Virus record (IMG/VR): IMGVR_UViG_3300045988_078601
Span: 111,873 to 175,872 of that record
Direction: 5' to 3' (one strand)
DNA length: 64,000 bases
Source: a virus
Below the pieces are notes generated by a model. The model was not told where the DNA came from and did not search any database. It saw only the letters and a program-made list of their open reading frames with translations. Shown one piece after another: positions 37,392 to 59,471 of the stretch. The translations under genes and the position numbers were made by a program. Positions within the stretch are counted from its first letter, which is position 1. Each line of letters starts with the position of its first letter.

Positions 37392-37785
37392 AATTCAAGA
37401 TACTTTTTAATATAAGATAGGCACTTTGCAAACCAGCCCTATCATCGAGAAGTAAACTAAAGAATGGTTTCTTAGTCCCTTTAAGAAGAGGACTTTCGTT
37501 AACATAATCTGGAGCAATACCAAAATGTTTACAATAGTCAATCTTCCACTTCAACCAGTTTTCATCTAGCTCTGAAGTGTAAAGACATAAGGTCCAACCT
37601 CTGTCCTTGCAATCTTTTAAAGCATCAATAATGTCTTTGTAGTTACCACCATTATTGTGCACATCGAAGATTGTATTGTCAAAGTCGAACCCTATGACTA
37701 AGCTACCATGAGTGTTCAGTTCTTTCTCTAAACGTCTTATACAATTATAGTCACAAAACGGATGATTAAAAGATTCGTTACTCAT
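37354..37785 (-). CDS. HAD-like hydrolase
   Basis: DxDxT motif LVIGFDFDNTIF; 143 aa. Confidence 0.45.
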   Translation of the reverse strand: MSNESFNHPFCDYNCIRRLEKELNTHGSLVIGFDFDNTIFDVHNNGGNYKDIIDALKDCKDRGWTLCLYTSELDENWLKWKIDYCKHFGIAPDYVNESPLLKGTKKPFFSLLLDDRAGLQSAYLILKSILNYADSKPNQQGKG

Positions 37786-39335
37786 TATAGCGTAGAGTTA
37801 ATACGTTCTCTAATTTCACTAAGAGTGTGATCTCGCATTAGTTTTCCGTTTACGAATACAGGCTCAAGAGCTCCAGCCATTTCCTCTTCTTCAGATACTC
37901 CATCGACTGCTACGTATTTACCATCCTTCTCATAGATAGCAATAAGACCTTTCAAAGAGTTCTTAGTACCGTCATCAGTCTTAGGTTGCTTAAATATTTC
38001 TACAAGCTGGCCATTTACTTTACAAGCTGTAGCCTTAACTGCGAAACCAAGAGAGTCTCTTGACTTGAACTGATAAGTAAACGAACCAACTCCAAGAACC
38101 AGATTACAAGCAGCCATATTAGCACCTTCAAGACGCATATAGATTTGCTTCTGACGTTCTAGAGTAATAGAGTCACCATAGAGCAGTCCAACTTTAGATG
38201 AAGGGTAACGGAAACCTTTCTCAGTAGTATTCCAGCCAAATGTCTTTCCGAGCATATAGTAAGCGCCATAATACTGTCCTTCTGATACCTCTACATACTC
38301 AGAATCAATATCAAATGGAGCATAGCAACAGTAGTAACGACCTTCTACAATGCGAGTATTAAAGTGTGGATTAGTTCTTAGTCCACAGATAATATCCACA
38401 GGGTCACCACTATCAGGACGGATAACAACACGACCATCGCGTGCCATAATCTCTTTCTTCAATTTAGGAAGAAAGTCTTCTACTACCTGCCAGAAATCCC
38501 AAGTATCTGATACTATACTTACGATTCCTTTAGGATATACGTCACAGATAAGACGGCGGAATGTTTCAATCTCCCCATCCTTGCCACCTGCACACATTAC
38601 ACTATGTTCAGTTGCGGGGACGGTTGCAGCCACAAGTTCCTTAGAAGAGTCTGCGTTGTAGTATTCTTCCAAGGCACGAATGGCCGGAATGGTTTCACTG
38701 CCACAGAACGAAGTCATATGAGCCATACCAGACATAATGGCAGCTTCGATACCAGCCATCCCCCTCATAGAGAAGTCATGACAAGAAAAGTCAATATTCA
38801 CATCAGTAGGGAAACCAGTACGGTCTGCATGACGTCTGAGTTCCTTCTTATACAGACGAGCAGATGTCGCAGATGTACACGGAAGCCACAAAGTACAACT
38901 TATAAGAGTCTCCAGATAGTTAGTAAGCCAAAAGAACTCCGGAAGTGTATTCTTAATAGTCATCATCGGAACCCTAATCGGACAGATTGAACCTTCAGGG
39001 AGAGCCTTGATTTCTATAGGCAAATAACCAAGATCATGCAAAGCTTCTATATGTTCAATACCGACATTTTCAATGCCGACAAAGTTATTTACTCTGTCAT
39101 AGAACTCTTTGACAGCTTGCTCTTTCGGAAGTTTAAAGAACTTCTTGTTGAACTGTTTAATCAAATACTCTTTTACCAAGTATTGAATACCAAACACTAC
39201 TGAACCTTCACTAGCTTCTGGAAAATACTTACAACTACGTGGAGTCCAATTTGAATAAACCATTTCAGTTCCTTTTGGATACTGAAAGTGATGACCGAGT
39301 TTATAACCATCGGTCAAAAGAATTGTTTCTTTCAT
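37785..39335 (-). CDS. nicotinamide phosphoribosyltransferase family protein (NAMPT/Namat-like)
   Basis: ILLTDGYKLGHHFQYP, LPIEIKALPEG, VIRPDSGDP closely match conserved NAMPT segments; 516 aa. Confidence 0.85.
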   Translation of the reverse strand: MKETILLTDGYKLGHHFQYPKGTEMVYSNWTPRSCKYFPEASEGSVVFGIQYLVKEYLIKQFNKKFFKLPKEQAVKEFYDRVNNFVGIENVGIEHIEALHDLGYLPIEIKALPEGSICPIRVPMMTIKNTLPEFFWLTNYLETLISCTLWLPCTSATSARLYKKELRRHADRTGFPTDVNIDFSCHDFSMRGMAGIEAAIMSGMAHMTSFCGSETIPAIRALEEYYNADSSKELVAATVPATEHSVMCAGGKDGEIETFRRLICDVYPKGIVSIVSDTWDFWQVVEDFLPKLKKEIMARDGRVVIRPDSGDPVDIICGLRTNPHFNTRIVEGRYYCCYAPFDIDSEYVEVSEGQYYGAYYMLGKTFGWNTTEKGFRYPSSKVGLLYGDSITLERQKQIYMRLEGANMAACNLVLGVGSFTYQFKSRDSLGFAVKATACKVNGQLVEIFKQPKTDDGTKNSLKGLIAIYEKDGKYVAVDGVSEEEEMAGALEPVFVNGKLMRDHTLSEIRERINSTL

Positions 39336-44147: not shown

Positions 44148-45269
44148 TTAGAGTGCTAAACCTCCTCTATACAAGGAAGGACGACTTTCAAGGTTAAGAA
44201 TCTTGAAGTAGTTCTTACCAGAATCGTTCTCCGTTATGATAATTCCATCTTTGTTAAGTGGCTCCACAACAGTTCCATAACCACCGAAAGACTCTCCAAC
44301 TTGCAAGAACTCAACTGACGTAGGAGAGTTAATCCTTCTAGTGTAGATGTCCAAATCATCCTCATCCAGAGTATACTCTTCGCCATCTGAATTCTTCTCT
44401 TTTGTGCCAACTTTAGCAAGAGTTTCCTTAAAGATGTCTACGGAGTTCTCCTCGTTATAGTAATAGCAAACCATCTTGGCGGTATAAGAATACTTAGCTT
44501 GCTCAACATTGATGAATTGCTTGAACTCAGAAACAGGACAGTTATGAATGTTAACTTCCTCTACAATACATTTCAAAATATCGATAGTTGATATAGCCAA
44601 GGAGTCAATAAATTCAAGGATTTCCTGAGTTCTACTCTTGTCCACCAAACAATCATCGAGATATTCCATAACGACTTCTGACGGAAGATTTCCAAAGGAT
44701 TTCTTATAACGAATTCTTGAGGGTCTTCCAATAAAGTTTTCATTGATATACAACTTGTTAGTTGTCAATATGAATACTCTACGATGTTGGCTATTGAAGA
44801 CTCCGTCCATGATAGACAACAACTCCAAATCGTGGCCCTTATCAGTGTTAAAATTCTTTTCAAACTCGTCAAAGAACAAGACGCACGGACAATTTATCTT
44901 GGAAATAAAGTCTGCAAGACCGGGATAAGGAGCATTGATAATAATTACAGGAAGCTTCGTTTCATTCGCAATAATCTTAGCAGTAATAGTCTTACCTGTG
45001 CCCTTGACACCATTAAACAGAATTCCTAAATTTCTTGAGGTATTCTCGAAAGTCTTCATTATATGCTTAATGAGTTTCGATTCCATACCATAAACCTTGA
45101 AATCAAAATGAAACTCATCTGCAAAGTCTTCCAAGAATATTTCATTACGATCAGAATCGTAGTTCATTGTATACACTCTTTTGCTAAGAGCGTCTAATAC
45201 TTGGATATTGCTATCCACTTGCTTAAGTACTCTACCGTTCCTAAGCCAAACAATACTTGGATTTTCCAT
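44148..45269 (-). CDS. classical AAA+ ATPase
   Basis: Walker A GVKGTGKT, Walker B VLFFDEFE, sensor-1 ILTTN, Arg finger RPSR; 373 aa. Confidence 0.75.
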   Translation of the reverse strand: MENPSIVWLRNGRVLKQVDSNIQVLDALSKRVYTMNYDSDRNEIFLEDFADEFHFDFKVYGMESKLIKHIMKTFENTSRNLGILFNGVKGTGKTITAKIIANETKLPVIIINAPYPGLADFISKINCPCVLFFDEFEKNFNTDKGHDLELLSIMDGVFNSQHRRVFILTTNKLYINENFIGRPSRIRYKKSFGNLPSEVVMEYLDDCLVDKSRTQEILEFIDSLAISTIDILKCIVEEVNIHNCPVSEFKQFINVEQAKYSYTAKMVCYYYNEENSVDIFKETLAKVGTKEKNSDGEEYTLDEDDLDIYTRRINSPTSVEFLQVGESFGGYGTVVEPLNKDGIIITENDSGKNYFKILNLESRPSLYRGGLAL

Positions 45270-45270
45270 A

Positions 45271-46218
45271 TTATAAATCTAAAAATGCTTTAACGTATTT
45301 ATTATTAGTGTCGAGGTTAGACCTCATTCCATTCTGAAGGATTACAAGATCATCTGCATTCATACCCTTAATAAGACAGATTCTTAATATGTCCTTCAGG
45401 GGCATACTGCCATTTAAAACAGTTATAGAACCCAGACCTCTATAAGAGAAGATTGACTTAATGCCAGCATCTTTCGTAAGTGCTCTAAACGTATGACAGA
45501 ATTCAAGAAGTTCTTTATCTCCTTTAGTTATGTTCTCCTCTATTCTTGGAGAGTAAGAGACAGTAACAATATTGAATCGGTCAAGAGAGGCTCCGTCAAG
45601 ACAATATCTTCCAGAATAGACATGGTCTGCACCAGTTCCAAAGGTATTTCCAGCTGCGATGAGTCTAAAGTCCTTATGAGCTTCTATCTTCCCAGTAGGG
45701 AAGTCAAAATATCTATTAGCAATAGCAGCATTAAGAATAACTAAGACTTCTGGAATAGAAGCATCTAATTCATCTAGGAAGAATAATCCTCCGTTCTTGA
45801 ATGCTTTATAAAATTGAGTTTCATGGTATATACCATTTGCATCAATAAAGCCAGTAAGCTTATATTCCTGAGTTATAGCATTAGTGAAATAAAATTCGAG
45901 TCCCAATGCCTCAGCTATCTGCTTACAGATAACATTCTTTCCAGTTCCAGCCTCACCACTTAAATATACAGGTAAGTCTAGAGAGACTAATTTAAGAACA
46001 GTTTTGAATTTCTCATGAAAAATTCCTGTAACTTTATGCGTAATTGGGCCTTGTTTTACCTCTACCACTTGGGGAAGGGGTCCATAGGTTTCCAAAATAT
46101 GCTTTTTCACTACAGGAACAACCTCATTATACACTTTGTCAACACACGTAGATATTACGGTGCTGTTAACTGCCGAGTCTATTAATTCGACCAGTTCTTT
46201 TACTCTATCTTCTTGCAT
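45271..46218 (-). CDS. AAA_5/MoxR-like ATPase
   Basis: Walker A LSGEAGTGKN, Walker B LFFLDELD, IAAGNT sensor; 315 aa. Confidence 0.7.
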   Translation of the reverse strand: MQEDRVKELVELIDSAVNSTVISTCVDKVYNEVVPVVKKHILETYGPLPQVVEVKQGPITHKVTGIFHEKFKTVLKLVSLDLPVYLSGEAGTGKNVICKQIAEALGLEFYFTNAITQEYKLTGFIDANGIYHETQFYKAFKNGGLFFLDELDASIPEVLVILNAAIANRYFDFPTGKIEAHKDFRLIAAGNTFGTGADHVYSGRYCLDGASLDRFNIVTVSYSPRIEENITKGDKELLEFCHTFRALTKDAGIKSIFSYRGLGSITVLNGSMPLKDILRICLIKGMNADDLVILQNGMRSNLDTNNKYVKAFLDL

Positions 46219-47365
46219 TTTCTTTTATATATGCTACTATTTGTTTAACATTAAAATCCATTTTTCCACGAATTAACTCTAGAGTGAGCACAACCGTATT
46301 AGGTTTATTGCCTAGCATCTCCTGGGATAGCATATGAGAAGGTGAACTACCATATCCAGAAGCAAAGTAATCGTTCTTAAGACCTGGTACCGTTTCTAGG
46401 AACCTAAATCCAATACGTCTTAGCATAGACGGATGAGCTATAGGGAAACATAGCTTTTTCAAATCCAATCTATCCTTATAATCCTTTAATTGCACAGTAC
46501 CTAGAACAGCTTCTCCTCTCGCATAACCAGAATACATAGAGCAGCTTAAGCTAATAGATACTCCAGAATTTTCAAGCAATTGTATTGCTGAAAGCATGGA
46601 GATACCTGCCTTAACGAAGTCCTCCCTAGCTACATGCCAAGGACCTTGAGGAAAATAAATTATATCAACGGTTTTTACTTTTTGAATTTCTCTAGTACGG
46701 TCATCCATAGAATGTGGTAACCCCATCAAATACTTTGGTACATTTGGAGAACTACCTACTACAGAGGACAGTGGTTTACTTTTAGTGTCAAGAAATAATT
46801 CTTTGAACTTGTTTACATTCTCAGCTATTCCTTGCTTAATTTTAGGCAATATACTAACATACCCATTTCTGAATAGATTAACTGCCTCATCATAACTACT
46901 AGTTCCGCTAAACTCTGATCTTTCAGAATTAGAGCTAGTGGATTCTCTCATAGCTTGATTATTGTCTCTATGATTCAGACATGATAACAGTTCATCTATT
47001 GAGTGGAAATGTTCGTGTATAATCTTTTTGAATTTACTAGTGTTATAAACTCTAATAAATCCTTGTGTCCCAGCTTTGGAGAAAGTATTACCTAAAAGTT
47101 TGGAATTTATTTCTTCAGGAACTACCTCTTCGTCCTCATCTTCCTTGTCTTTTGTATCGGAAACTCTAGGAGTCTCAGGAATAGGGATTGGCTCTGGAAC
47201 TACTTCGGGCTTAGGTTCTGGAGTAGGTTCTGGAATAGGTTCAGGTTCTTCAGGTTCTTCAGGTTTCTCCTCCTTTTCTTCTACGGTAACATTTTTCTCT
47301 CTTTGGAATAGCCTTCTTAGCCACTTCCAAAAAGTTTTTAAAAAAAGAATCTTCACTTTAATCAT
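46205..47365 (-). CDS. hypothetical protein with Pro/Glu-rich low-complexity N-terminal linker
   Basis: EEKEEKPEEPEEPEPIPEPTPEPKPEVVPEP repeat region then ~280-aa globular part; overlaps AAA_5 gene by 14 nt. Confidence 0.35.
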   Translation of the reverse strand: MIKVKILFLKTFWKWLRRLFQREKNVTVEEKEEKPEEPEEPEPIPEPTPEPKPEVVPEPIPIPETPRVSDTKDKEDEDEEVVPEEINSKLLGNTFSKAGTQGFIRVYNTSKFKKIIHEHFHSIDELLSCLNHRDNNQAMRESTSSNSERSEFSGTSSYDEAVNLFRNGYVSILPKIKQGIAENVNKFKELFLDTKSKPLSSVVGSSPNVPKYLMGLPHSMDDRTREIQKVKTVDIIYFPQGPWHVAREDFVKAGISMLSAIQLLENSGVSISLSCSMYSGYARGEAVLGTVQLKDYKDRLDLKKLCFPIAHPSMLRRIGFRFLETVPGLKNDYFASGYGSSPSHMLSQEMLGNKPNTVVLTLELIRGKMDFNVKQIVAYIKENARR

Positions 47366-47471: not shown

Positions 47472-47646
47472 ATAAATCAGAACACTTTACTAGTTTTAGT
47501 ATGATAGTCCTCCGAAACTAGTACAGAGCAAGCCACTTTATTTACCATCAAAAGAGCAGTAGGGATACATTAACCATCAGTATCTTTGGACTAGACCAGC
47601 TAGCTTCTAATTAATAATAATTGTAATAATATGCATAAATAAAATT

Positions 47647-47667
47647 TTTGCTGTGAGTGTTCTTATT
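47647..47667 (-). promoter_or_regulatory. conserved motif copy 1 (plus-strand TTTGCTGTGAGTGTTCTTATT)
   Basis: One of 5 related copies; ~175 nt upstream (minus sense) of tRNA-Leu(TAG). Confidence 0.3.
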
Positions 47668-48055: not shown

Positions 48056-48143
48056 GAAAAGGACAATTTAGTTTTTCAGGTCGTTTCGGACTCTCTGCGA
48101 AAAGTTTTATAGTGCTATACGCTTAACCACTCGTCCTTTTAGC

Positions 48144-48218
48144 AGAACACTTACTCTTAGGATTCGAACCTTACCTCTCAGTTAGGAACTGAGTGTGCTA
48201 CCATTACACCACATGTTC
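48144..48218 (-). tRNA. tRNA-like gene, possible tRNA-Arg (anticodon CCT) with irregular T-arm/acceptor geometry
   Basis: D-loop TAATGGTAG, anticodon stem-loop CTCAG-TTCCTAA-CTGAG, T-loop TTCGAATCC, but 3 extra nt between T-arm and acceptor and a G:A mismatch in acceptor. Confidence 0.4.
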
Positions 48219-48248
48219 TATAAAATGGCGAACAATAGAAAGTAAAGA

Positions 48249-48270
48249 TTTTGCTGTATGTGTTCTTGTA
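48249..48270 (-). promoter_or_regulatory. conserved motif copy 2 (TTTTGCTGTATGTGTTCTTGTA)
   Basis: ~30 nt upstream (minus sense) of the tRNA-Arg(CCT)-like gene. Confidence 0.3.
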
Positions 48271-48337: not shown

Positions 48338-50263
48338 TTACTTCACTTCTTCAAAGTGTTCCTCACCTTCAGAAACTTCCGGTTGTTTAGGCTTGTTCTC
48401 GATTTGTTTTCCTCCAAACATATCTTTTACAGTGTCTGCAATTGGGATAGAACGGAGCAAATCAAGAGCAGGATTCAAGTTTTCTGCAGTCTTAGCCATA
48501 AAGTTACCGGCAGTATTTTCGTTACCATATACAGTAACCTGTCCAAGATGGATGTGTTCAAACATCTTAGCAGAAGCATCAGCAATACCGGATAACTGGT
48601 CAACTGTCTTATACTGCACAATCATCTGAGGTGTCATACCAGAATCAATCATCTTCTCAATAGCCAATGCAGGGGCCATCTCAATAGCCTGTACTTTATC
48701 AGCTTCAGCCATCAAAGATGCTCTCTTACCTTCAGCCTCAGCCAGAAGTTTCTTACGAGTACCCTCGGCTTCTGCTTCCAACTGCATCTTTGTAGCATTT
48801 GCTTTTGCTTCAGCCTCCTTAGTAATCTCAGCTGCCTTAGCTTCTGCCTCAAGAATAGCTTTCTGCTTGATTGCTTCAGCTTCAATTGTTACTTTCTCCT
48901 TCTGCTTCTGAGCAGGAACAATCACCTCTGCAGTCAATTTAGCTTCAGCAGCCAATGCTGCAGCCTCATTTACTTCAACTTGTCTTTCCTGCTTAGTCTT
49001 CTCAATAGCCATCTGAGCTTCAACTTTAGAAGTACCTGCAATCTTCTCAGCTTCTGCCTCAGCTTGAGCTGCCTCTCCTCTTGCTTTAGATACTTCAATA
49101 GTAGCTTTCTGTTCAGCTACCCCAGCCGCCTTATCAGCTTCTGCAGCTCTCTGACGCTTCTGTGATTCATATTCAGCTACTTTAGCTTGCTGTTCATTAA
49201 CAGCTTTCTGAGTTTCAGCCTCTTGTTCTTGCTCAGCCTTAGCCATACGAATCTGTTTCTGAGCTTCAGCTTCTGCTTGAGCTGACAATGCCTCAGCTTC
49301 TGACTTAGCAACAGATGCTACAGCCTCAGCTTTACGAGCTGCTGTTGCTGACTCTGCTGCAGCCTGAGCCTTAGCAATGTTAGCTTCCTTTTCAGCCTGT
49401 TGTTCAGCGACTCCGGACTCCTTAACCTTTTCAGCCTCAGCCAATTTAATTTGCTTCTCCTGCTCAATCTCAGCTACACGAACTTCTTGTTCCTGCTTGG
49501 TCTGAGCTACCTGAGTTGCACGAGCTTTTTCTGCATCTGCTACAGCAATTTCTTTCTCCTTAATAGTCTCTGCAATTCGGATCTGTCCTTTCTTTTCCTC
49601 TTCAGCAATATCAGCCTCTGCTTGAGCTTGTGCTTCAGTAGCGGCTTTCTTACCAAGATTCTTGATATAGTTAGCATCATCCGAAATGTCAGCATTATTA
49701 ATATTGATAATACTGAAACCAATCTTATTCAATTCAGTTTCAATATTCTCTTTTGCTTTACCTAAGAACTTAACACGGTCAGAGTTAATTTCCTCAATGG
49801 TCATAGTAGCCATCAAACTACGCATTTCACCAATAAGGATATCCTTAATCTGTTCCGATATTTCGTTAGGGGAAGCAGTCAAGAAACGACTGGCAGCATT
49901 TTGCATAAGTTCATCAGTAGTACCAATACCAGTAGTTAGAGTTACAGGAATCGTTACTTTAATCATCTGACTTGATACACCAATAACCGATGTTTGAATT
50001 TGAATCGGTTTAAGAGACATTTTTCGCCAGTCTTGAATTATAGGGAATACAAAAGTACCACCTCCATGAATAATCTTAGAAGGAAGAACAACTGTTTCAT
50101 TCTTTCCTGTAGTTGGATTAGTAACAGTTTTCTTACCTGCTTTACCAAATACTACCAAGATTTCATCACTTGCGCAACGACGATAACGTGACATCAAACC
50201 AATTAAGGTCAAAATTACAAGGATTGCTACAATCCCTGCAATAATCAAACTAGAAGTAATCAT
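48338..50263 (-). CDS. SPFH/band-7 (flotillin/YqiK-like) membrane protein with long Ala/Glu-rich coiled coil
   Basis: N-terminal TM IIAGIVAILVILTLIGL, band-7 core, then ~250 aa of AEAEAQ/EKAR heptad-like repeats; 641 aa. Confidence 0.8.
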   Translation of the reverse strand: MITSSLIIAGIVAILVILTLIGLMSRYRRCASDEILVVFGKAGKKTVTNPTTGKNETVVLPSKIIHGGGTFVFPIIQDWRKMSLKPIQIQTSVIGVSSQMIKVTIPVTLTTGIGTTDELMQNAASRFLTASPNEISEQIKDILIGEMRSLMATMTIEEINSDRVKFLGKAKENIETELNKIGFSIININNADISDDANYIKNLGKKAATEAQAQAEADIAEEEKKGQIRIAETIKEKEIAVADAEKARATQVAQTKQEQEVRVAEIEQEKQIKLAEAEKVKESGVAEQQAEKEANIAKAQAAAESATAARKAEAVASVAKSEAEALSAQAEAEAQKQIRMAKAEQEQEAETQKAVNEQQAKVAEYESQKRQRAAEADKAAGVAEQKATIEVSKARGEAAQAEAEAEKIAGTSKVEAQMAIEKTKQERQVEVNEAAALAAEAKLTAEVIVPAQKQKEKVTIEAEAIKQKAILEAEAKAAEITKEAEAKANATKMQLEAEAEGTRKKLLAEAEGKRASLMAEADKVQAIEMAPALAIEKMIDSGMTPQMIVQYKTVDQLSGIADASAKMFEHIHLGQVTVYGNENTAGNFMAKTAENLNPALDLLRSIPIADTVKDMFGGKQIENKPKQPEVSEGEEHFEEVK

Positions 50264-50782: not shown

Positions 50783-52009
50783 TTATTCTAAATGAAACAA
50801 TGAATTTTCCAGTACAACGTCTCTTCCTATATCATCCCCATTATGTATCTGGTTAATAGTGAGAACTTGAAGTTTACGGACTCCCTCCATGACTTGCTTA
50901 GAAACATCTTCTGGATATACAGTTGTTATGACATGCTCTAGGCAAATTCCCCTATAGCAGCGTAAATTCTGTTCTTTCTCTGCAAATGCTAAGATCGCAT
51001 TGAAAATTGAGATCCATGTCAAGACCTTTTCAAAGTTGTAAGTCGGTCTAAGGAGTCTGAACTCTATAGTTTTGTTGACGTTATAGCATACAGCATTGAC
51101 AAAGTTTACCCAATAATACCGAGTAGGAATCCGCCATTTGGCCTCACGTCTTATGTCATTAGGATGAGGCTGAGTAAGACTACCATAAAATCTTCTTCCT
51201 ACAAGATATTCATAAAGCTGGTCGAAGTCCTTAAATGATGGAAGCTTCATACAATAATCCTTGCCGTTCGCTTTGTAATGCGCACTATGAAAGGTTTCTG
51301 GTGGAACCAATCCTCCTATCTCAGATTCAAGTCCCTTACATAACAAGTATGCTCTATACAAACTTTTAGGTTCCAAGTTGAAACCTCCAAAGTGCATATG
51401 TAGAGAACATTCCTTATTAAAGGCAGTATATTTCCGTAATGTCCCTAACTGCTGACGCAATAAGGACAAACCAGAATTACCTTCCATAACCACAGTAGAA
51501 TACTCTAGACCAGAAATTGAACCGTCTCGCAATGGAATTAGTCCATCTCTGAAGCAGAGATCTTCTGGAACATAACCCATAGAGGTTTCAAACTCTAGAC
51601 CAAAGGAGTATTTCAAGTGCTCAGCAACTTTAAATGTTTCTGGATGTACTATTTGTTGCTTTCCCTCGAAGATGTTAAAGCTTTCTACAGCTTCATATCT
51701 CCTTTCAAAGTGATATGGGAAACTTCCAAATCCCATTTGATACTGCTCTATTGGCAATAAATTAGAAGGGAAATCGACAACAGAAACATAACAGCCTCTG
51801 TAGACACTATATACCAGGACATCCTTTAATAGTTCTTTATCACCCTCAAAATATCTTAATTCTCCCTCAACGTAAGCTAAGAATCTGATGATGGATTCCG
51901 ATCTACTACTGTATCCAAGTACTAGAGTCCCAGGAAGGTGTTGTACAGCCACTAATGCACAATTTTGTCTGGAGATTTTTCTTCCAGTTATTTCATCAAT
52001 GACTTGCAT
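50783..52009 (-). CDS. carboxylate-amine ligase (GCS2/YbdK-like glutamine-synthetase-fold amidoligase)
   Basis: FGLEFETSMG and SLHMHFGG match YbdK motifs GIELEMQ and GQHVHVG; 408 aa. Confidence 0.6.
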   Translation of the reverse strand: MQVIDEITGRKISRQNCALVAVQHLPGTLVLGYSSRSESIIRFLAYVEGELRYFEGDKELLKDVLVYSVYRGCYVSVVDFPSNLLPIEQYQMGFGSFPYHFERRYEAVESFNIFEGKQQIVHPETFKVAEHLKYSFGLEFETSMGYVPEDLCFRDGLIPLRDGSISGLEYSTVVMEGNSGLSLLRQQLGTLRKYTAFNKECSLHMHFGGFNLEPKSLYRAYLLCKGLESEIGGLVPPETFHSAHYKANGKDYCMKLPSFKDFDQLYEYLVGRRFYGSLTQPHPNDIRREAKWRIPTRYYWVNFVNAVCYNVNKTIEFRLLRPTYNFEKVLTWISIFNAILAFAEKEQNLRCYRGICLEHVITTVYPEDVSKQVMEGVRKLQVLTINQIHNGDDIGRDVVLENSLFHLE

Positions 52010-53376
52010 TCTTCCTTAATCGTTTTAAAGTTAATATCCAATTTATCAAGGACTTTAGATTTTATAGGCTCTTTTACTCCTTTATATGTAGTACCTATAC
52101 GAGTTCCTGCTGTAAATCTGGTTGCTGAGACAGAAGTCATCGGTTGCCAGATCCCAGTAAATAGCACGGAACCGGTAGCGGACACAGCCTGATACCAATA
52201 ATCACCTTTTGGATAGATGCCATCTACGCTTAAGAACCGAATAACGTTCTCAAACTTAAAGAAAAAGTCCTTATCCGAGAGTTTGCTTTCCTTCTTAAGG
52301 TTAGTAAGAAAGTTATAACAATGCTTATTTTTCAAAGCTACACCACTGAAAAACCACACATCGCAGTCTTTTGACAATTTACCTCCGACTCTTCCATAGT
52401 CATTAATTGACAACTTGCCATGAATTTTCTTTCCTTTATAGGAATAGATATTTCTAAGCATGTCAACACTGATATAGTTGTCATATACCATAGAGGTTTC
52501 ACTATCAAACCAGGAATCATCATAGTAGTCGTCATAGCTACCATAACTTCCATACTTTCCATAAGAACCATGCCCATAATAAGCACCTTCATATAATGGA
52601 TATGTCTTAGCAACAGTAGTAACTTCCTTACTTTGCTGCATATTGGTTCTATCGTACTTTTCAACAAGCACAAGAGACGTACCATTAAACTCTAAGAGCT
52701 CGTTAGTTCTAAGAGAATAAGTAGTACAATCTCTTCTCAGAGCCATCAGATACATCCAAATAGAAGAGAAAACCAGCTCACGTTTTGTCTTGTCAATGCA
52801 GTAATAGAGTGGTCGTTCAGCTTCTGCGTCCTTAGAATAAGAGGTCTTCTTGGAAGAACCTCTAAACAACAACGTTCTTGGAGCTATTCCTCTATAGTCA
52901 ACGATTGCAAATACTGCACCTCCATTGTACTCTCCCAGAGCACTATAACCAGCATGATAGAAGATATGAGCCATAACTTGAGAATCAGTCATGCCAGTAA
53001 TATCCACATCAGGAATATATTTCTTAGCAAGCTTCTCATAGTTATAAATTGTCCCATTATGCATCAATACAAATTCAACCTTGCCGTCCTTAGTAATTAC
53101 AACTGGTTGAGCAGTCTTCTCACTAATAACTCCGACTGAAGCTTTTCTACAATGAACTAGAGCAACTGTAGATTTTTCTACTTCCTCAAGGAGTTTACTT
53201 TCTTGAAAGTAAGAGGAGAAGAACTTATTTTCTCCGACGCCATATTCATAACGTCCATCAATAAATACTCCACAAGAATCGCCACCTCTTGCGTCGTTTG
53301 AAATACCTAAAGAACAAAATGTAGCGTAATCAAATGTCCTAGGAGTTTTATTTATAATACCTGCTATACCACACAT
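51988..53376 (-). CDS. class-II (Ntn) glutamine amidotransferase domain protein
   Basis: N-terminal MCGIAGI nucleophile-Cys signature; 462 aa with uncharacterised C-terminal half. Confidence 0.7.
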   Translation of the reverse strand: MCGIAGIINKTPRTFDYATFCSLGISNDARGGDSCGVFIDGRYEYGVGENKFFSSYFQESKLLEEVEKSTVALVHCRKASVGVISEKTAQPVVITKDGKVEFVLMHNGTIYNYEKLAKKYIPDVDITGMTDSQVMAHIFYHAGYSALGEYNGGAVFAIVDYRGIAPRTLLFRGSSKKTSYSKDAEAERPLYYCIDKTKRELVFSSIWMYLMALRRDCTTYSLRTNELLEFNGTSLVLVEKYDRTNMQQSKEVTTVAKTYPLYEGAYYGHGSYGKYGSYGSYDDYYDDSWFDSETSMVYDNYISVDMLRNIYSYKGKKIHGKLSINDYGRVGGKLSKDCDVWFFSGVALKNKHCYNFLTNLKKESKLSDKDFFFKFENVIRFLSVDGIYPKGDYWYQAVSATGSVLFTGIWQPMTSVSATRFTAGTRIGTTYKGVKEPIKSKVLDKLDINFKTIKEECKSLMK

Positions 53377-53387
53377 ATAGTTTATCC

Positions 53388-54179
53388 TTACATGATGTTA
53401 TATGTCTTAACAATATTTTGTGCCAAATCGGCATCGCTGTCATTGATAGCTCTTACAACATAAGTTGAATCAATCAGTCTTCCACCTCTTGATGCAGCTG
53501 CCAAAGCTTTCTGAACTTGTCTCCATACAAACTGCAGAGTCTCTACGTCTTTCATCATAGCTGAACTCAAGACACGATACTCTACACCATAAGAAGTCAA
53601 ACGGAAGCATCCAGCTTTTCCATATAAAGAGCGTCTACGTTTATCCTTATCATAGATAACAGATGGGACTCCAAGGTACATATCAAGATACTTTACAATG
53701 AGAATAGAAGCATCGATATTTGGATTTTCATATCCTATATGGATATGGAATCCGGCACTTCTTAAGTTGGTCTTGGAACCTTCTGGCTTAGGATTAGCGG
53801 CCTCTGTATAGGCATTGTAGTCTACATCACACCCGAACAATTGAGCTTGTGGACTTTGAAGTTGATTCTTATCCACAGTCTTAGAAGCAGCACAAAGGAT
53901 ACCATAGTCAGGGTTAAGGTTCTTAACAAACTTGTCAATGTACTGTTTCATGTACTCAATGTTGTTCACAAATGACGCCTCGTCGGAAACTGGTGGAATA
54001 TTAAATTCTGCCAGGATATTATCGGTTTCTAGACCAAAACCAGAAGGCATATCCTCAGCCACATAAGGATTACCTTTTTCACCAGGAATTTTTCCTACAG
54101 AAGAAACAACTTTCTTTGTCTTTTCGTTAATAATAAAGAGTTCTGGATCTGCGCCGATAGTAATTTTACCTAATTTCAT
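53388..54179 (-). CDS. amidoligase-like protein (GS-fold, Amidoligase_2-like)
   Basis: GADPELF and AGFHIHIGYE (HxHxG) motifs; 263 aa. Confidence 0.5.
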   Translation of the reverse strand: MKLGKITIGADPELFIINEKTKKVVSSVGKIPGEKGNPYVAEDMPSGFGLETDNILAEFNIPPVSDEASFVNNIEYMKQYIDKFVKNLNPDYGILCAASKTVDKNQLQSPQAQLFGCDVDYNAYTEAANPKPEGSKTNLRSAGFHIHIGYENPNIDASILIVKYLDMYLGVPSVIYDKDKRRRSLYGKAGCFRLTSYGVEYRVLSSAMMKDVETLQFVWRQVQKALAAASRGGRLIDSTYVVRAINDSDADLAQNIVKTYNIM

Positions 54180-54798
54180 CTACTAATTTCTTTACTAAGT
54201 TATTAATCATTTTTGCTACAGGTGAGTTAGGAATCATCTCAGGATGTCCCTGCACAGCTAGACATTTAGGAAGTCCGTCTTTGTGATAGTAAACTATCTC
54301 TGGTTCTCCATAGCTGCGTATATAGTCAGAGTCTATATTCTCACCTCCATATGTTGTGCTTCTACACTCTTCTGACCGAAATAAAATGTTATAATCCTTG
54401 CGATTCAAGTTATAGGGATACTGCATCTGATGATGTGTAGAAGTTATTTGATAACATACTTTACCATCAGTAATACCGTGCGTGTAACCTATAGCGTGGT
54501 TATCGCAATGTTGAACCAATAAACCACCATTCATAACACAAAGGAATTGAGATCCTCTGCAAATTCCAAGACAAACTTGCTTGTTTGGAATGACACTCTC
54601 AAATACTTTCTTTTCCTCTAAATCCCTTTGAAGATTAGAGTAAGTTCGAGGGTGTTTTTCGCACTTATAAAGAGATGGGTCAACGTCCTCACCTCCAGTA
54701 AACAAGACTACATCTGCCTCTTTAATGTCATTAACAAGAGAGGCGTTTTCGAGGAAGTTAGCGTAGCCAACTGAACCTCCTACAACAAATACTTTCAT
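54166..54798 (-). CDS. class-I glutamine amidotransferase / gamma-glutamyl hydrolase-like (peptidase C26-like)
   Basis: Catalytic Cys in LGICRGSQ and His-Glu in VQGHPE. Confidence 0.65.
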   Translation of the reverse strand: MKVFVVGGSVGYANFLENASLVNDIKEADVVLFTGGEDVDPSLYKCEKHPRTYSNLQRDLEEKKVFESVIPNKQVCLGICRGSQFLCVMNGGLLVQHCDNHAIGYTHGITDGKVCYQITSTHHQMQYPYNLNRKDYNILFRSEECRSTTYGGENIDSDYIRSYGEPEIVYYHKDGLPKCLAVQGHPEMIPNSPVAKMINNLVKKLVDEIR

Positions 54799-58444: not shown

Positions 58445-58503
58445 ATTTTACAGAGTACTATTCTAAACGTGTCAAATTAAAAGTTTGATGTTTGAAAAAA
58501 TAA

Positions 58504-58524
58504 TTTGCTGTATGTACTCTTCTA
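58504..58524 (-). promoter_or_regulatory. conserved motif copy 3 (TTTGCTGTATGTACTCTTCTA)
   Basis: ~60 nt upstream of tRNA-Cys 5' end. Confidence 0.3.
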
Positions 58525-58720
58525 CTAACGATTCTAAATGTATACTTTATAAAGTAGTTTAGGATATGCTTTTGAGTGCGGACTTTCATTCAAAAGCCTC
58601 GATGCTTTAACTCTCAACTCAGATAAGGCTTATCTGTATAGAATTATCGAATTCTAAGTCTGACATATCCCCTTGTGGACTAACCACTTGGCCTTTTTAA
58701 AGTAAAACTACTCTTATAAG

Positions 58721-59286
58721 TGGAGATGGAGGGAGTCGAACCCTCGTCCAAACAATCCTTAATAATAGGATAACGTGTGTCTCATTTTTATTTATCAGCT
58801 AGTGAGTTCTAGCATATAGATAATTTTACTCGACTTACTAACTGCGAGTTTATCAAATTACCAAACTTTTAGGCTTGACTGGTTCACAGTCAGCTCCACC
58901 ACCTATTTTTTAACACCAAAAATAGGAAACGGTGTTTAGTGGTCCGTCAATCCCAAGGCTAATCTGACCTTTCATTTAACGACGTATAGGAGATTCAGCT
59001 CTACTAACCTGTGGCCTTCGAGTTAAGCACAGTGGCTTATATCCTTCTACTGTACACCTCTTCTGTTTCTAGGTCTCTCCTTGTAACCCGACACATAACT
59101 CAAAGCTAATGTGCCAGCTGCTTAGGCAGCCAATCTTACGCTATTGTTTGCATTTATTGTTTTCCTTCGTTTAAAGAGATCGCGCTCTACACGTCCTACT
59201 ATCTCGTAATCGCTGTCAAAACCAAGCATCCCCGAGATCAGAAATCCATCTTTACACTTTTGCTCTACCAACTGAGCTATCTCCCC
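58721..59286 (-). ncRNA. ssrA: tmRNA (ssrA)-like gene, ~566 nt; tag ANNSVRLAA
   Basis: 5' end GGGGAGATAGCTCAGTTGGTAGAGC (tRNA-like acceptor+D-arm). 3' end GGACGAGGGTTCGACTCCCTCCATCTCCA closely parallels E. coli tmRNA 3' end GGACGCGGGTTCAACTCCCGCCAGCTCCA, with G3:U70. Internal tag frame GCA AAC AAT AGC GTA AGA TTG GCT GCC TAA (59151..59122) starts GCA-AAC and ends LAA-stop as in canonical tags. Confidence 0.55.
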
Positions 59287-59302
59287 ATTAATTGAATACT
59301 AG

Positions 59303-59340
59303 TGGGGAGAAGCGGGCTCGAACCGCTGACCCAAAGACCC
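59303..59340 (-). ncRNA. tRNA 3'-half-like element (T-arm + 3' acceptor strand) immediately 5' of the tmRNA-like gene; candidate permuted acceptor piece
   Basis: Minus strand AGCGGTTCGAGCCCGCT-TCTCCCC-A. The TCTCCCC strand is perfectly complementary to the GGGGAGA 5' end of the tmRNA-like RNA 17 nt downstream. Confidence 0.35.
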
Positions 59341-59348
59341 CTCGTATA

Positions 59349-59369
59349 AATTGCTGTTGGATTTCTTGT
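59349..59369 (-). promoter_or_regulatory. conserved motif copy 4 (ATTGCTGTTGGATTTCTTGTA)
   Basis: Immediately upstream of the tRNA 3'-half element / tmRNA-like gene. Confidence 0.3.
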
Positions 59370-59398
59370 AAATGAACACATTTTTAGTAAACCTTGCG

Positions 59399-59471
59399 TT
59401 GGGAAGACCAGACTCGAACTGGCAATATCTACATCCCAAATGTAGGAGGTTACCGATTACCCAACTTCCCA
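59399..59471 (-). tRNA. tRNA-Pro (anticodon TGG)
   Basis: Acceptor TGGGAAG/CTTCCCA, anticodon stem-loop CTACA-TTTGGGA-TGTAG, T-arm GCCAGTTCGAGTCTGGT. Confidence 0.75.

What the first reader, a model, noticed from the sequence alone, without database searches (positions are those of the whole stretch)
58721..59340. tmRNA-like gene with tag ANNSVRLAA and ambiguous (standard vs permuted) architecture
A ~566-nt minus-strand RNA begins with a tRNA-like acceptor + D-arm (GGGGAGATAGCTCAGTTGGTAGAGC). Its 3' end, GGACGAGGGTTCGACTCCCTCCATCTCCA, is nearly collinear with the canonical tmRNA terminus GGACG-GGGTTC-A-TCCC-CCA-CTCCA and gives a G3:U70 pair. Inside it, an in-frame GCA AAC AAT AGC GTA AGA TTG GCT GCC TAA (59151..59122) would append ANNSVRLAA, starting GCA-AAC like E. 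coli and ending LAA-stop.

In addition, 17 nt upstream of the 5' GGGGAGA there is a T-arm + TCTCCCC-A segment perfectly complementary to it. That is the gene order expected for a circularly permuted (two-piece) tmRNA. So either a long one-piece tmRNA or a permuted one is encoded.

A phage-borne tmRNA with an atypical tag is of functional interest, either for ribosome rescue during host takeover or for directing tagged host proteins to proteolysis.
Basis: seen in the sequence. Interest (0 to 1): 0.7.

Follow-up and report, generated by a model that had tools for sequence, protein, structure and literature searches.

The report
Phage tmRNA beside a Y-like RNA
The region holds an ordinary one-piece ribosome-rescue RNA (tmRNA) of a large gut phage, and the "permuted" signal just upstream is a separate tRNA-mimicking Y-like RNA that belongs with a nearby Ro60-like protein gene.

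Summary
The interpretation needs correcting.

**tmRNA.** A standard one-piece tmRNA lies at 59233..58721 (-). It scores 99.2 bits against Rfam RF00023 (gathering score 47). Its 5' end is GGGGAUG at 59233, not GGGGAGA at 59286. The tag ANNSVRLAA is real. Twenty-three related phage contigs carry homologous tmRNAs with covarying acceptor, T and P2 helices, an invariant G3:U70 pair, and in-frame 9-10-residue tags ending (M/L)(A/V)A.

**Upstream element.** The T-arm, 7-bp hairpin and D-arm form the tRNA-like module of a separate 131-nt RNA at 59368..59238. A covarying basal stem closes it, followed by a conserved ACAGCAA motif. It resembles bacterial YrlA Y RNAs but scores below Rfam's threshold. 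In most relatives this RNA and the tmRNA lie on opposite sides of a marker gene, so the permuted reading fails.

The tmRNA is a new member of a known kind. The Y-like RNA with its Ro-like protein is a new variant.

The parts
58721..59233 (-). One-piece tmRNA gene, 513 nt to the discriminator A. The CCA tail is not encoded; the sequence continues C-U-U.
   Evidence: RF00023 scores 99.2 bits (gathering score 47), E 1.6e-37, model positions 1-374. Twenty-three homologues were found by nhmmer. Helices covary.
59227..59233 (-). tmRNA acceptor 5' strand GGGGAUG
   Evidence: It pairs 7/7 with CAUCUCC (58728..58722). Pair 3 is G.U in every correctly aligned homologue. Pair 4 switches GC<->CG and pair 5 shows four pair types.
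59122..59151 (-). Tag reading frame: resume codon GCA through stop TAA, encoding ANNSVRLAA. The stop lies in the loop of helix 5.
   Evidence: Covariance-model alignment. Homologues keep the frame with 3-nt indels: ANYNEVRMAA, ANYSEVRMAA, ATTSVRMAA, GETEGFRMAA, GNTEVRMAA, GNTVYRMVA, GNTEVKMAA.
58721..58745 (-). tmRNA T-arm (GAGGG UUCGACU CCCUC, 58745..58729), acceptor 3' strand (58728..58722) and discriminator A (58721)
   Evidence: Three of the five T-stem pairs covary.
59238..59368 (-). Y-RNA-like (YrlA-like) RNA number 2, 131 nt. From 5' to 3': basal stem strand AGAAAUCCA, ACAGCAA motif, internal loop, tRNA-like module, basal stem strand UGGAUUUCU. It ends 4 nt before the tmRNA 5' end.
   Evidence: RF02553 YrlA scores 27.7 bits, E 0.0018, below the gathering score of 69. 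MFE fold z = -3.5. In the family alignment A2, 94.8% of cells are paired against 35-45% in slid controls, and 22 of 28 pairs show compensatory changes. Model R1 scores 87.9 bits.
59351..59357 (-). Conserved single-stranded ACAGCAA motif directly 3' of the basal-stem 5' strand (59366..59358). Proposed protein-binding site.
   Evidence: The first six bases (ACAGCA) are invariant and the seventh nearly so in A2. Across 49 loci, 306 stem-plus-motif modules lie on the Ro-gene strand and 34 on the other strand. The position matches that of the GNCGAA/CGAA motif of YrlA and Yrl RNAs.
59262..59327 (-). tRNA-like module of Y-like RNA number 2:
- T-arm, 59327..59311
- acceptor-like hairpin UCUCCCC / 17-nt loop / GGGGAGA, 59310..59280
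- U8 A9
- D-arm GCUC-AGUUGGUA-GAGC, 59277..59262
   Evidence: Read directly from the sequence. Matches the YrlA consensus. The T and acceptor-like stems covary and the D stem is invariant.
61582..61719 (-). Y-like RNA number 1, 138 nt. It starts 13 nt after the stop codon of the Ro60-like gene and ends 3 nt before tRNA-Thr.
   Evidence: R1 scores 50.7 bits, E 9e-10; this copy was not in the training set. Sequence, fold.
61732..63507 (-). Ro60/TROVE-like protein, 591 aa: a helical ring plus a vWA domain with a complete MIDAS motif (D354 S356 S358 T425 D456). Pfam assigns DUF2828 and DUF7788.
58450..58522 (-). Short module (basal stem plus ACAGCAA, no tRNA-like insert). It ends 5 nt before tRNA-Cys.
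   Evidence: R1 scores 28.4 bits. Conserved in many loci.
48142..48268 (-). ACAGCAA-stem module enclosing a normal-order tRNA-like core (D arm, CCU anticodon arm, T arm) that lacks an acceptor stem
   Evidence: R1 scores 21.1 bits. Rfam tRNA gives a partial hit at 48158-48211, 33.2 bits. Fold.
47477..47665 (-). 189-nt ACAGCAA-stem module ending 5 nt before tRNA-Leu(tag)
   Evidence: R1 scores 21.1 bits. Stem scan.
59569..61386 (-). 117-aa ORF (61033..61386) and 483-aa AAA+ ATPase (59569..61020), lying between the Ro-like gene and the Y-like RNA/tmRNA. They are syntenic in the closer relatives only.
   Evidence: Pfam AAA and phrog_10440. tblastn shows synteny in L001-L005, L008, L009, L032, L036 and L037, with the AAA+ ATPase partly matched in L047.
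59398..59471 (-). tRNA-Pro(tgg), the gene upstream of Y-like RNA number 2. It is part of an 11-tRNA minus-strand array spanning 42.7-61.6 kb.
   Evidence: ARAGORN and Rfam.

Best explanation
Two adjacent but independent stable-RNA genes lie in the tRNA array of a roughly 175-kb gut phage.

**(1) tmRNA, 59233..58721 (-).** This is a conventional one-piece tmRNA. By inference it is cut out of the array transcript by RNase P and 3' trimming, receives CCA, is charged with alanine through G3:U70, and acts with SmpB on stalled ribosomes. None of these steps was observed. No SmpB was found in the window, so the host's is presumed. The tmRNA would append ANNSVRLAA, an LAA-type degron.

**(2) Y-RNA-like RNA, 59368..59238 (-).** A covarying basal stem and a conserved ACAGCAA loop motif carry a circularly permuted tRNA mimic (T arm, acceptor-like hairpin, D arm). 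It is one of about five such modules in the window and of hundreds in related phages. Most sit directly in front of tRNA genes.

The proposed role is a Y RNA partner of the Ro60-like protein encoded at 63507..61732. Together they would form an RNP that acts on RNA quality control or repair, or on host defence, during infection.

**Shown:** the gene structures, the covariation, the fact that the two RNAs are separable, the Ro60 fold of the protein, and the RNA–protein gene linkage across distant phages.

**Inferred:** binding of the RNA to the protein, the processing steps, and the biological role.
For: **tmRNA**
- RF00023 scores 99.2 bits.
- Twenty-three homologues were found. Acceptor, T, P2 and helix-5 pairs change in a compensatory way and pair 3 is always G.U.
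- The tag frame is conserved, with indels in multiples of three.

**Separability of the two RNAs**
- Only the window and L001 have the Y-like RNA abutting the tmRNA.
- In L011-L034 and similar loci the tmRNA lies 1-3 kb upstream of the Ro-like gene, while the Y-like RNAs lie 2-9 kb downstream.
- L002, L003, L008 and L009 have Y-like RNAs but no tmRNA within the flanks.
- RF04321 hits only where a T-arm happens to precede the tmRNA.

**Y-like RNA**
- Covariation statistics.
- Sub-threshold YrlA hits on every element tested, 27.7-45.2 bits.
- Canonical tRNA tertiary-contact bases are present: U8, A14, G15-C48, G18G19 and UUCGA (read from the sequence).

**Protein**

**Linkage of RNA and protein**
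- 46 of 49 loci have modules on the gene's strand.
- Independent R1 hits lie next to very distant homologues in cultured phages: Enterococcus phage EfV12-phi1, 99.6 and 75.7 bits, within about 250-715 nt upstream of its DUF2828 gene; Leptolyngbya phage Lbo-JY46, three short modules starting 6 nt after the gene; Felixounavirus REP10 and Bas63, 57.8 and 57.6 bits, in the tRNA array after the gene.

**Literature**
- Bas63 gp130 was reported as Ro60-like and as a counter of the Ppl defence. Y RNAs among its tRNAs were only speculated (PMC11482910).
- Phage Ro60 with Y-like RNAs is established for Thermus phage phiLo and mycobacteriophages.
Against: - No expression, processing or binding data exist for any of these RNAs.
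- The defining YrlA motif GNCGAAN0-1G is absent; ACAGCAA stands in its place. All RF02553 scores are below the gathering score.
- The protein does not hit Pfam TROVE. Its link to Ro60 is structural, plus a weak sequence match in the vWA domain.
- Up to 12 modules per 17-kb locus is far more than the usual 1-4 Y RNAs. In addition, 119 of 306 modules end within 10 nt of a tRNA start. The modules could therefore be tRNA-leader or processing elements.
- All loci were chosen through the Ro-like gene, so the reverse test (modules without the gene) was not done properly.
- In the tmRNA, PK1 and PK2-4 are poorly aligned to the Rfam model. The central region is expanded by about 140 nt.
Confidence: 0.8

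Rival explanations
1. A circularly permuted (two-piece) tmRNA. The upstream T-arm plus TCTCCCC-A would be the acceptor piece, and the downstream GGGG... segment through the tag would be the coding piece.
For: - The gene order is superficially right.
- RF04321 tmRNA_permuted scores 58.6 bits, above its gathering score of 47, over 59362..59122.
Against: - UCUCCCC pairs 7/7 with the GGGGAGA 17 nt away, giving G3-C70. With the tmRNA 5' end GGGGAUG it pairs with a mismatch and gives no G3:U70.
- A complete, covarying 3' tRNA-like half exists downstream.
- In most homologous copies the acceptor-like stem is closed by a loop of about 3-7 nt.
- The element occurs 1-12 times per locus and is usually far from the tmRNA.
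- In L001, RF04321 starts inside a real tRNA gene. In L019 and L028 it finds nothing.
Confidence: 0.02
2. A long one-piece tmRNA of about 566 nt that starts at GGGGAGA (59286) and carries an unusual D-arm.
For: GGGGAGA can pair at 5 of 7 positions with the 3' strand CAUCUCC, including G3:U70.
Against: - GGGGAUG at 59233 pairs 7/7 and is followed by the conserved UUGGUUUUGAC and P2 sequence.
- In L001 the corresponding upstream strand is CAGGAGG, which cannot pair with that tmRNA's 3' strand, yet GGGGAUG is kept.
- In the other 22 homologues no such upstream element precedes the tmRNA.
Confidence: 0.02
3. The ACAGCAA-stem modules, including 59368..59238, are structured spacers or leaders of the tRNA array. 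They would act as processing, insulation or stability elements for RNase P/E/III maturation, or as decoy tRNA mimics, working independently of the Ro60-like protein.
For: - 119 of 306 modules end within 10 nt of the next tRNA, mostly 6-8 nt past the stem.
- There are up to 12 per locus.
- Some lie about 13 kb from the Ro-like gene (window 47.5-48.3 kb).
- Some lack any tRNA-like insert.
Against: - In three very distant lineages (22-40% protein identity) modules lie within about 6-715 nt of the Ro-like gene, including sites with no tRNA immediately after them (Lbo-JY46).
- The architecture (closing stem, single-stranded motif in a large internal loop, T/AS/D module) is that of YrlA.
- A conserved single-stranded heptamer is more typical of a protein-binding site than of an RNase P leader.
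Confidence: 0.15
4. The upstream element is a decayed tRNA fragment pair or a permuted tRNA gene left by recombination in the array, and has no function of its own.
For: It contains near-perfect tRNA T-arm, acceptor and D-arm sequences in permuted order and sits in a tRNA array.
Against: - The same permuted architecture recurs in dozens of non-identical copies, with compensatory changes in every variable helix.
- It recurs in unrelated cultured phages.
- Its ends are held together by a covarying basal stem that a tRNA fragment would not need.
Confidence: 0.02

Closest known systems
Bacterial and phage one-piece tmRNA (SsrA; Rfam RF00023), including the phage-encoded tmRNAs reported in huge phages (PMC7162821)
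   Same: - tRNA-like domain with a 7-bp acceptor stem, G3:U70 and a T-arm
- P2 helix
- resume codon GCA after an A/U-rich stretch
- short tag ending LAA, with the stop codon in the helix-5 loop
- tag length of 9 residues, like the Bacteroides tag GETNYALAA
   Different: - It is long: 513 nt here and 487-596 nt in the family, against a 374-position Rfam model. The pseudoknot region is expanded and aligns poorly.
- CCA is not encoded.
- ARAGORN misses it.
- No SmpB gene lies in the 64-kb window.
Two-piece (permuted) tmRNAs of alpha- and beta-proteobacteria and cyanobacteria (Rfam RF04321 and relatives)
   Same: Only the local order 'T-arm + acceptor 3' strand, then GGGG...'.
   Different: The acceptor pairing, G3:U70 and conservation of the arrangement all fail. 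The downstream gene already has its own 3' half.
YrlA-type bacterial and phage Y RNAs (Rfam RF02553; Chen et al. 2014, PMC4201824; Thermus phage phiLo Yrl1/2, PMC12135203)
   Same: - 5'/3' closing stem and a large internal loop with a short single-stranded motif just after the 5' strand
- permuted tRNA mimic (T arm, acceptor-like stem-loop, D arm)
- encoded on the same strand and within a few kb of a Ro60-type gene
- several copies per genome, and occurrence in phages
- the 7-bp acceptor-like stem of the window copy, which parallels M. smegmatis YrlA; that RNA is cut by RNase P and receives CCA
   Different: - The motif is ACAGCAA, not GNCGAAN0-1G/CGAA.
- RF02553 scores are 27.7-45.2 bits, below the gathering score of 69.
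- Copy number is much higher, and the modules are interleaved with tRNA genes.
- Some members carry no insert or a normal-order tRNA-like core.
- The partner protein belongs to the DUF2828/DUF7788 family, not Pfam TROVE.
Ro60/Rsr (TROVE + vWA) proteins; Bas63 gp130 of Felixounavirus (PMC11482910)
   Same: - Predicted helical ring plus vWA/MIDAS fold. The best PDB matches are Ro60 from Xenopus, Thermus phage phiLo and D. radiodurans.
- The protein is homologous to Bas63 gp130 (27% identity over the vWA domain, E 1e-14).
- Like gp130, its gene sits at the head of a tRNA array.
   Different: - No Pfam TROVE hit.
- 11-16% identity to solved Ro60 structures.
- RNA partners had not been identified for this family. 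In Bas63 the authors only guessed that some 'tRNAs' might be Y RNAs.

Membership tests
tmRNA, one-piece (RF00023) | Covariance-model score at or above the curated gathering score | tested here: met
   99.2 bits against 47, full model 1-374. Homologues score 68-97 bits.
tmRNA, one-piece (RF00023) | tRNA-like domain: a 7-bp acceptor stem formed by the 5' and 3' ends, with G3:U70, plus a T-arm | tested here: met
   GGGGAUG pairs with CAUCUCC. G.U is invariant at pair 3, pairs 4 and 5 show compensatory changes, and the T stem covaries.
tmRNA, one-piece (RF00023) | Internal tag reading frame with a resume codon and in-frame stop, conserved as a coding frame | tested here: met
   ANNSVRLAA. Eight further tag variants in 23 homologues are all in frame, 9-10 residues long, and end (M/L)(A/V)A-TAA. 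Indels are multiples of 3.
tmRNA, one-piece (RF00023) | Pseudoknots PK1-PK4 | tested here: inconclusive
   The model alignment has non-canonical pairs in PK1 and low posterior probability across PK2-4, with a 179-nt insertion. The sequence blocks there are conserved among the phage homologues, but pseudoknots were not modelled.
tmRNA, one-piece (RF00023) | SmpB partner, alanine charging and trans-translation activity | not testable with these tools
Only 64 kb of a roughly 175-kb genome was seen.
Two-piece permuted tmRNA (RF04321) | Covariance-model score at or above the gathering score | tested here: met
   58.6 bits against 47. However, the hit overlaps the 5' third of the one-piece gene and borrows the Y-like T-arm.
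Two-piece permuted tmRNA (RF04321) | Acceptor stem with G3:U70 formed between the upstream acceptor piece and the coding-piece 5' end | tested here: not met
   UCUCCCC against GGGGAUG gives a mismatch and G3-C70. UCUCCCC is instead perfectly paired within its own hairpin.
Two-piece permuted tmRNA (RF04321) | Arrangement conserved in homologues, with no separate 3' tRNA-like half | tested here: not met
   The arrangement is seen only in the window and L001. All 24 tmRNAs have their own covarying 3' half.
YrlA / bacterial Y RNA (RF02553) | tRNA-like module in the order T stem-loop, acceptor-like stem-loop, D stem-loop | tested here: met
   T and AS stems covary and the D stem is invariant.
YrlA / bacterial Y RNA (RF02553) | Helix formed by the 5' and 3' ends that closes the RNA | tested here: met
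   All 7 basal pairs show compensatory changes and 97.4% of cells are paired.
YrlA / bacterial Y RNA (RF02553) | Encoded within about 4 kb of a Ro60 orthologue, on the same strand (criterion of Chen et al. 2014) | tested here: met
   Y-like number 1 starts 13 nt after the Ro-like stop codon. Y-like number 2 lies 2.4 kb downstream on the same strand. The same holds in cultured phages. The protein is a structural, not a Pfam-level, Ro60 homologue.
YrlA / bacterial Y RNA (RF02553) | GNCGAAN0-1G (CGAA) motif near the 5' end | tested here: not met
   ACAGCAA occupies that position in every copy.
YrlA / bacterial Y RNA (RF02553) | Covariance-model score at or above the gathering score (69 bits) | tested here: not met
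   27.7 bits for window number 2, no hit for window number 1, and 33.8-45.2 bits for relatives.
YrlA / bacterial Y RNA (RF02553) | Physical binding to the Ro60 protein | not testable with these tools
   Inferred only from gene linkage.
Ro60 / TROVE protein | Helical-repeat ring followed by a vWA domain with MIDAS | tested here: met
Ro60 / TROVE protein | Sequence-level membership (Pfam TROVE PF05731) | tested here: not met
   Only DUF7788 and DUF2828 hit. Three of 46 relatives weakly hit vWA_Ro60. A profile search of the PDB reaches Ro60 at E 0.0016 in the vWA region only.

The most novel reading that the evidence does not exclude
The ACAGCAA-stem RNAs are a previously undescribed, very abundant class of phage Y RNAs that arm a divergent Ro60-like protein (the DUF2828/DUF7788 family, which includes Bas63 gp130) as an anti-defence or RNA-repair RNP.

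The subclass seen here has a perfect 7-bp acceptor stem, a discriminator A and a long AU-rich loop. Like M. smegmatis YrlA, it may be opened by RNase P and given CCA. That would produce a genuine two-piece, permuted tRNA mimic placed directly in front of the phage's own tmRNA.
Probability: 0.3. Interest if true: 0.75.

Novelty: new variant of a known kind. Interest (0 to 1): 0.5.

Why it matters
**The tmRNA.** By itself it is a new member of a known kind, since phage tmRNAs are already documented. Its practical value is as a caution. ARAGORN misses these long phage tmRNAs, and the Rfam permuted-tmRNA model can give an above-threshold false call when a T-arm lies upstream.

**The neighbouring RNA.** This is the more interesting result. 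It provides a concrete candidate for the missing RNA partner of a widespread phage Ro60-like protein family: 2284 clusters at 50% identity and 337 phage genome records. One member of that family, Bas63 gp130, has been reported to counter the Ppl defence system.

Candidate RNAs are now located in culturable E. coli, Enterococcus and cyanobacterial phages. The hypothesis that the Ro-like protein binds ACAGCAA-stem tRNA mimics can therefore be tested directly.

Tried and rejected
- **ARAGORN** on the window finds 11 tRNAs but no tmRNA.
- **Single-sequence and shallow-profile searches of the PDB** with the 591-aa protein found nothing meaningful. The first AF2 model from 25 close homologues was poor (pLDDT 61.7). 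A deeper alignment fixed this.
- **Paper searches** for 'DUF2828' or 'TROVE' were uninformative. Two later queries were rejected for syntax.
- **The search for related loci** with a single protein gave only one locus. The diverse alignment A3 was too variable to search with.
- **The genome-contig scan** returned 7 MAG contigs assigned to unrelated taxa. These are probably mis-binned phage contigs, so no host could be inferred.
- **The sigma-70 promoter and terminator scan** was at chance level.
- **RAGATH-34** occurs upstream of the Ro-like gene in L019 and L028 but not in the window.
- **The 17-mer scan of viral contigs** was noisy: 48 of 82 hits lacked a closing stem. The stored flanks were too short to test whether the Ro-like gene is present.
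- **Rejected readings:** the permuted tmRNA, the 566-nt tmRNA and the decayed-tRNA readings, for the reasons given under rival explanations.
Full report
**Observation.**
- the tRNA-like 5' sequence GGGGAGATAGCTCAGTTGGTAGAGC at 59286..59262
- the tmRNA-type 3' terminus at 58749..58721
- the tag frame at 59151..59122
- a T-arm plus TCTCCCC-A at 59327..59303, which is 17 nt upstream of GGGGAGA and perfectly complementary to it

No ORF of 60 aa or more overlaps the region.

**The tmRNA.**
- Rfam RF00023 matches 59233..58718 end to end with 99.2 bits (gathering score 47; E 1.6e-37).
- GGGGAUG pairs 7/7 with CAUCUCC (58728..58722), including G3:U70.
- The discriminator is A58721 and CCA is not encoded.
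- ARAGORN does not call the gene.
- Using the neighbouring 591-aa protein as a handle, I fetched 49 related IMG/VR loci from phage contigs of roughly 100-190 kb. nhmmer found tmRNA homologues in 23 of them.
- In a MAFFT alignment of the 24 sequences, pair 3 is always G.U. Pair 4 alternates G-C/C-G and pair 5 shows four pair types. Three T-stem pairs, most P2 pairs and two helix-5 pairs also covary.
- The tag frame is conserved as a coding frame: ANNSVRLAA, ANYNEVRMAA, ANYSEVRMAA, ATTSVRMAA, GETEGFRMAA, GNTEVRMAA, GNTVYRMVA and GNTEVKMAA. All stop at TAA in the helix-5 loop, and length differences are multiples of three.
- The tags have the length and C-terminus of ordinary SsrA degrons. The Bacteroides tag is GETNYALAA.
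- The family is long (487-596 nt). The pseudoknot region aligns poorly to the Rfam model, but it contains blocks conserved among the phage copies.
The rest of the genome was not available.
- Phage-encoded tmRNAs are already documented (PMC7162821).

**The 'permuted' signal.**
- RF04321 (tmRNA_permuted) does hit 59362..59122 above threshold, at 58.6 bits against 47. That alignment borrows the upstream T-arm and then simply follows the first third of the one-piece gene as far as the tag stop. It pairs UCUCCCC with GGGGAUG with a mismatch and without G3:U70.
- A permissive Rfam scan also gave a YrlA (Y RNA-like, RF02553) match over 59335..59258, at 27.7 bits and E 0.0018, below the gathering score of 69. 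It aligns T arm / hairpin / D arm.
- Folding the stretch between tRNA-Pro and the tmRNA shows that a long stem closes the whole element: AGAAAUCCA with UGGAUUUCU, then UUUAUAC with GUGUAAA (z = -3.5).
- Homologous elements were found in most loci, often in several copies, always on the strand of the marker gene.
- In a 22-sequence MAFFT alignment, RNAalifold predicts the basal stem, T stem, acceptor-like stem and D stem, and 19 of 24 pairs show compensatory changes.
- With an added inner stem, 94.8% of cells are paired against 35-45% when partners are slid. The covariation score is 0.638 against about 0.1, and 0 of 500 shuffles reach the observed values.
- A heptamer ACAGCAA directly after the 5' basal strand has its first six bases invariant and the seventh nearly so.

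**Why the permuted reading is excluded.**
- Only in the window and in L001 does this element abut the tmRNA. In 22 other genomes the tmRNA lies upstream of the marker gene and the elements lie downstream. Some loci have the elements and no tmRNA nearby.
- In most copies the acceptor-like stem is closed by a loop of about 3-7 nt.
- In L001 the RF04321 hit starts inside a real tRNA gene. In L019 and L028 it does not hit at all.

**The partner protein.**
- The 591-aa ORF at 63507..61732 hits only Pfam DUF7788 and DUF2828, and PHROG 850 'RNA-binding protein'.
- Sequence searches of the PDB were empty at first.
- An exhaustive profile search found 2284 clusters of relatives.
- An alignment of 46 diverse members shows an invariant MIDAS motif. 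It reaches human and Xenopus Ro60 at E of about 0.002 in the vWA region. A few members hit Pfam vWA_Ro60.
- The alignment yields a confident AlphaFold model, pLDDT 91.5 and pTM 0.90.

**Linkage of RNA and protein.**
- A covariance model of the element (R1) finds a second, untrained copy in the window at 61719..61582 (50.7 bits). It starts 13 nt after the Ro-like stop codon and ends 3 nt before tRNA-Thr.
- Weaker copies lie at 58522..58450, 48268..48142 and 47665..47477.
- Across the 49 loci, 306 'closing stem + ACAGCA' modules lie on the gene's strand against 34 on the other strand, in 46 of 49 loci.
- 119 of them end within 10 nt of the next tRNA.
- The pairing holds in cultured phages whose proteins are only 22-40% identical:
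  - Enterococcus phage EfV12-phi1: R1 scores of 99.6 and 75.7 bits within about 250-715 nt upstream of its gene. YrlA scores 45.2 and 34.3 bits there.
  - Leptolyngbya phage Lbo-JY46: three short modules starting 6 nt after the gene.
  - Felixounaviruses REP10 and Bas63: 57.8 and 57.6 bits in an 'empty' gap of the tRNA array that follows the gene. In Bas63 the hit overlaps the annotated ORF bas63_0137.
- Bas63 gp130 is the homologue of the window protein. A 2024 preprint reported it as Ro60-like and as a counter of the Ppl defence. Its authors only speculated that some neighbouring 'tRNAs' might be Y RNAs.

**Comparison with known systems.**
- Y RNAs of the YrlA type are defined by closeness to Ro60, a GNCGAAN0-1G motif and a T/AS/D tRNA mimic. 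They are known in mycobacteriophages and in Thermus phage phiLo.
- M. smegmatis YrlA has a 7-bp acceptor stem, is cleaved by RNase P and receives CCA. The window copy also has a perfect 7-bp stem, a following A and a 17-nt AU-rich loop, so the same processing is plausible. It remains untested.
- The present family shares the architecture and the genomic logic. It fails two membership criteria: the motif and the Rfam threshold.
- Its protein fails Pfam TROVE.
- It is far more numerous than known Y RNAs and is interleaved with tRNA genes.
- I therefore file it as a new variant that works like a Y RNA, not as a member of RF02553.

**Context.** The window is a phage replication and nucleotide-metabolism region. 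It encodes DNA polymerase, NrdD, primase, helicases, DNA ligase and an RNA ligase, together with an 11-tRNA array. This fits a translation-maintenance and RNA-repair theme, though that is an inference.

**Verdict.** The tmRNA is real, one-piece and ordinary in mechanism. The ambiguity is resolved by an adjacent Y-RNA-like gene, whose family and Ro60-like partner are the more novel part of the locus.

Noticed in passing
window 48142-48268 (-): An ACAGCAA-stem module whose interior is a normal-order tRNA-like core: a D arm, an anticodon arm with loop UUCCUAA (anticodon CCU) and a T arm. A long basal stem replaces the acceptor stem. Rfam tRNA gives a partial hit at 48158-48211 (33.2 bits, above the gathering score of 29).
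   Followed up: partly
window 58523-58720 (-): A stretch of about 195 nt between the tmRNA 3' end and the short module has no assignment. It is 76% conserved in L001 only and has a stable predicted fold (MFE -42 kcal/mol for 200 nt).
   Followed up: partly
L019 7628-7727; L028 7661-7758: RAGATH-34 RNA (RF03103) lies about 270 nt upstream of the Ro60-like gene in relatives, at 77.8 bits (above the gathering score) and 56.5 bits. It is absent from the corresponding window stretch, of which only 493 nt is available.
   Followed up: partly
L001 15706-15909: A group I intron hit (RF00028, 61.1 bits, gathering score 50) lies inside the tRNA array of the closest relative.
   Followed up: no
L028 17095-17184; L019 15616-15703: tRNA-Sec model hits in the phage tRNA arrays: 48.3 bits, just above the gathering score of 47, and 41.4 bits.
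   Followed up: no
L142 7565-7694 (Bas63, MZ501086 82779-82908): The candidate Y-like RNA of Bas63 overlaps the annotated minus-strand hypothetical ORF bas63_0137 (82748-82900). That ORF is therefore probably spurious.
   Followed up: partly
window 7236-8606 (-): A 456-aa RNA ligase (phrog_968, E 2e-39) lies in the same phage region as the tRNA array, the tmRNA and the Ro-like gene.
   Followed up: no
window 50783-54798 (-): A cluster of amidoligase_2-like, class-II glutamine amidotransferase, phiEco32-like COOH-NH2 ligase and peptidase C26/GATase genes lies next to a 641-aa SPFH/Band-7 protein (48338-50263).
   Followed up: no
window 44148-47365 (-): Two AAA+ ATPases (one of the AAA_5/MoxR-dynein type) are followed by a DUF7192 protein and sit between tRNA genes. 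This may be a MoxR-type chaperone set.
   Followed up: no
window 37785-39335 (-): A nicotinamide/nicotinate phosphoribosyltransferase homologue (NAPRTase plus NAMPT_N), indicating phage-encoded NAD salvage.
   Followed up: no
loci L001-L049: ARAGORN calls a tmRNA in only 4 of these loci, although nhmmer finds a tmRNA homologue in 23 of them and Rfam confirms it in all three loci tested (L001, L019, L028). Surveys that rely on ARAGORN alone will undercount long phage tmRNAs.
   Followed up: yes
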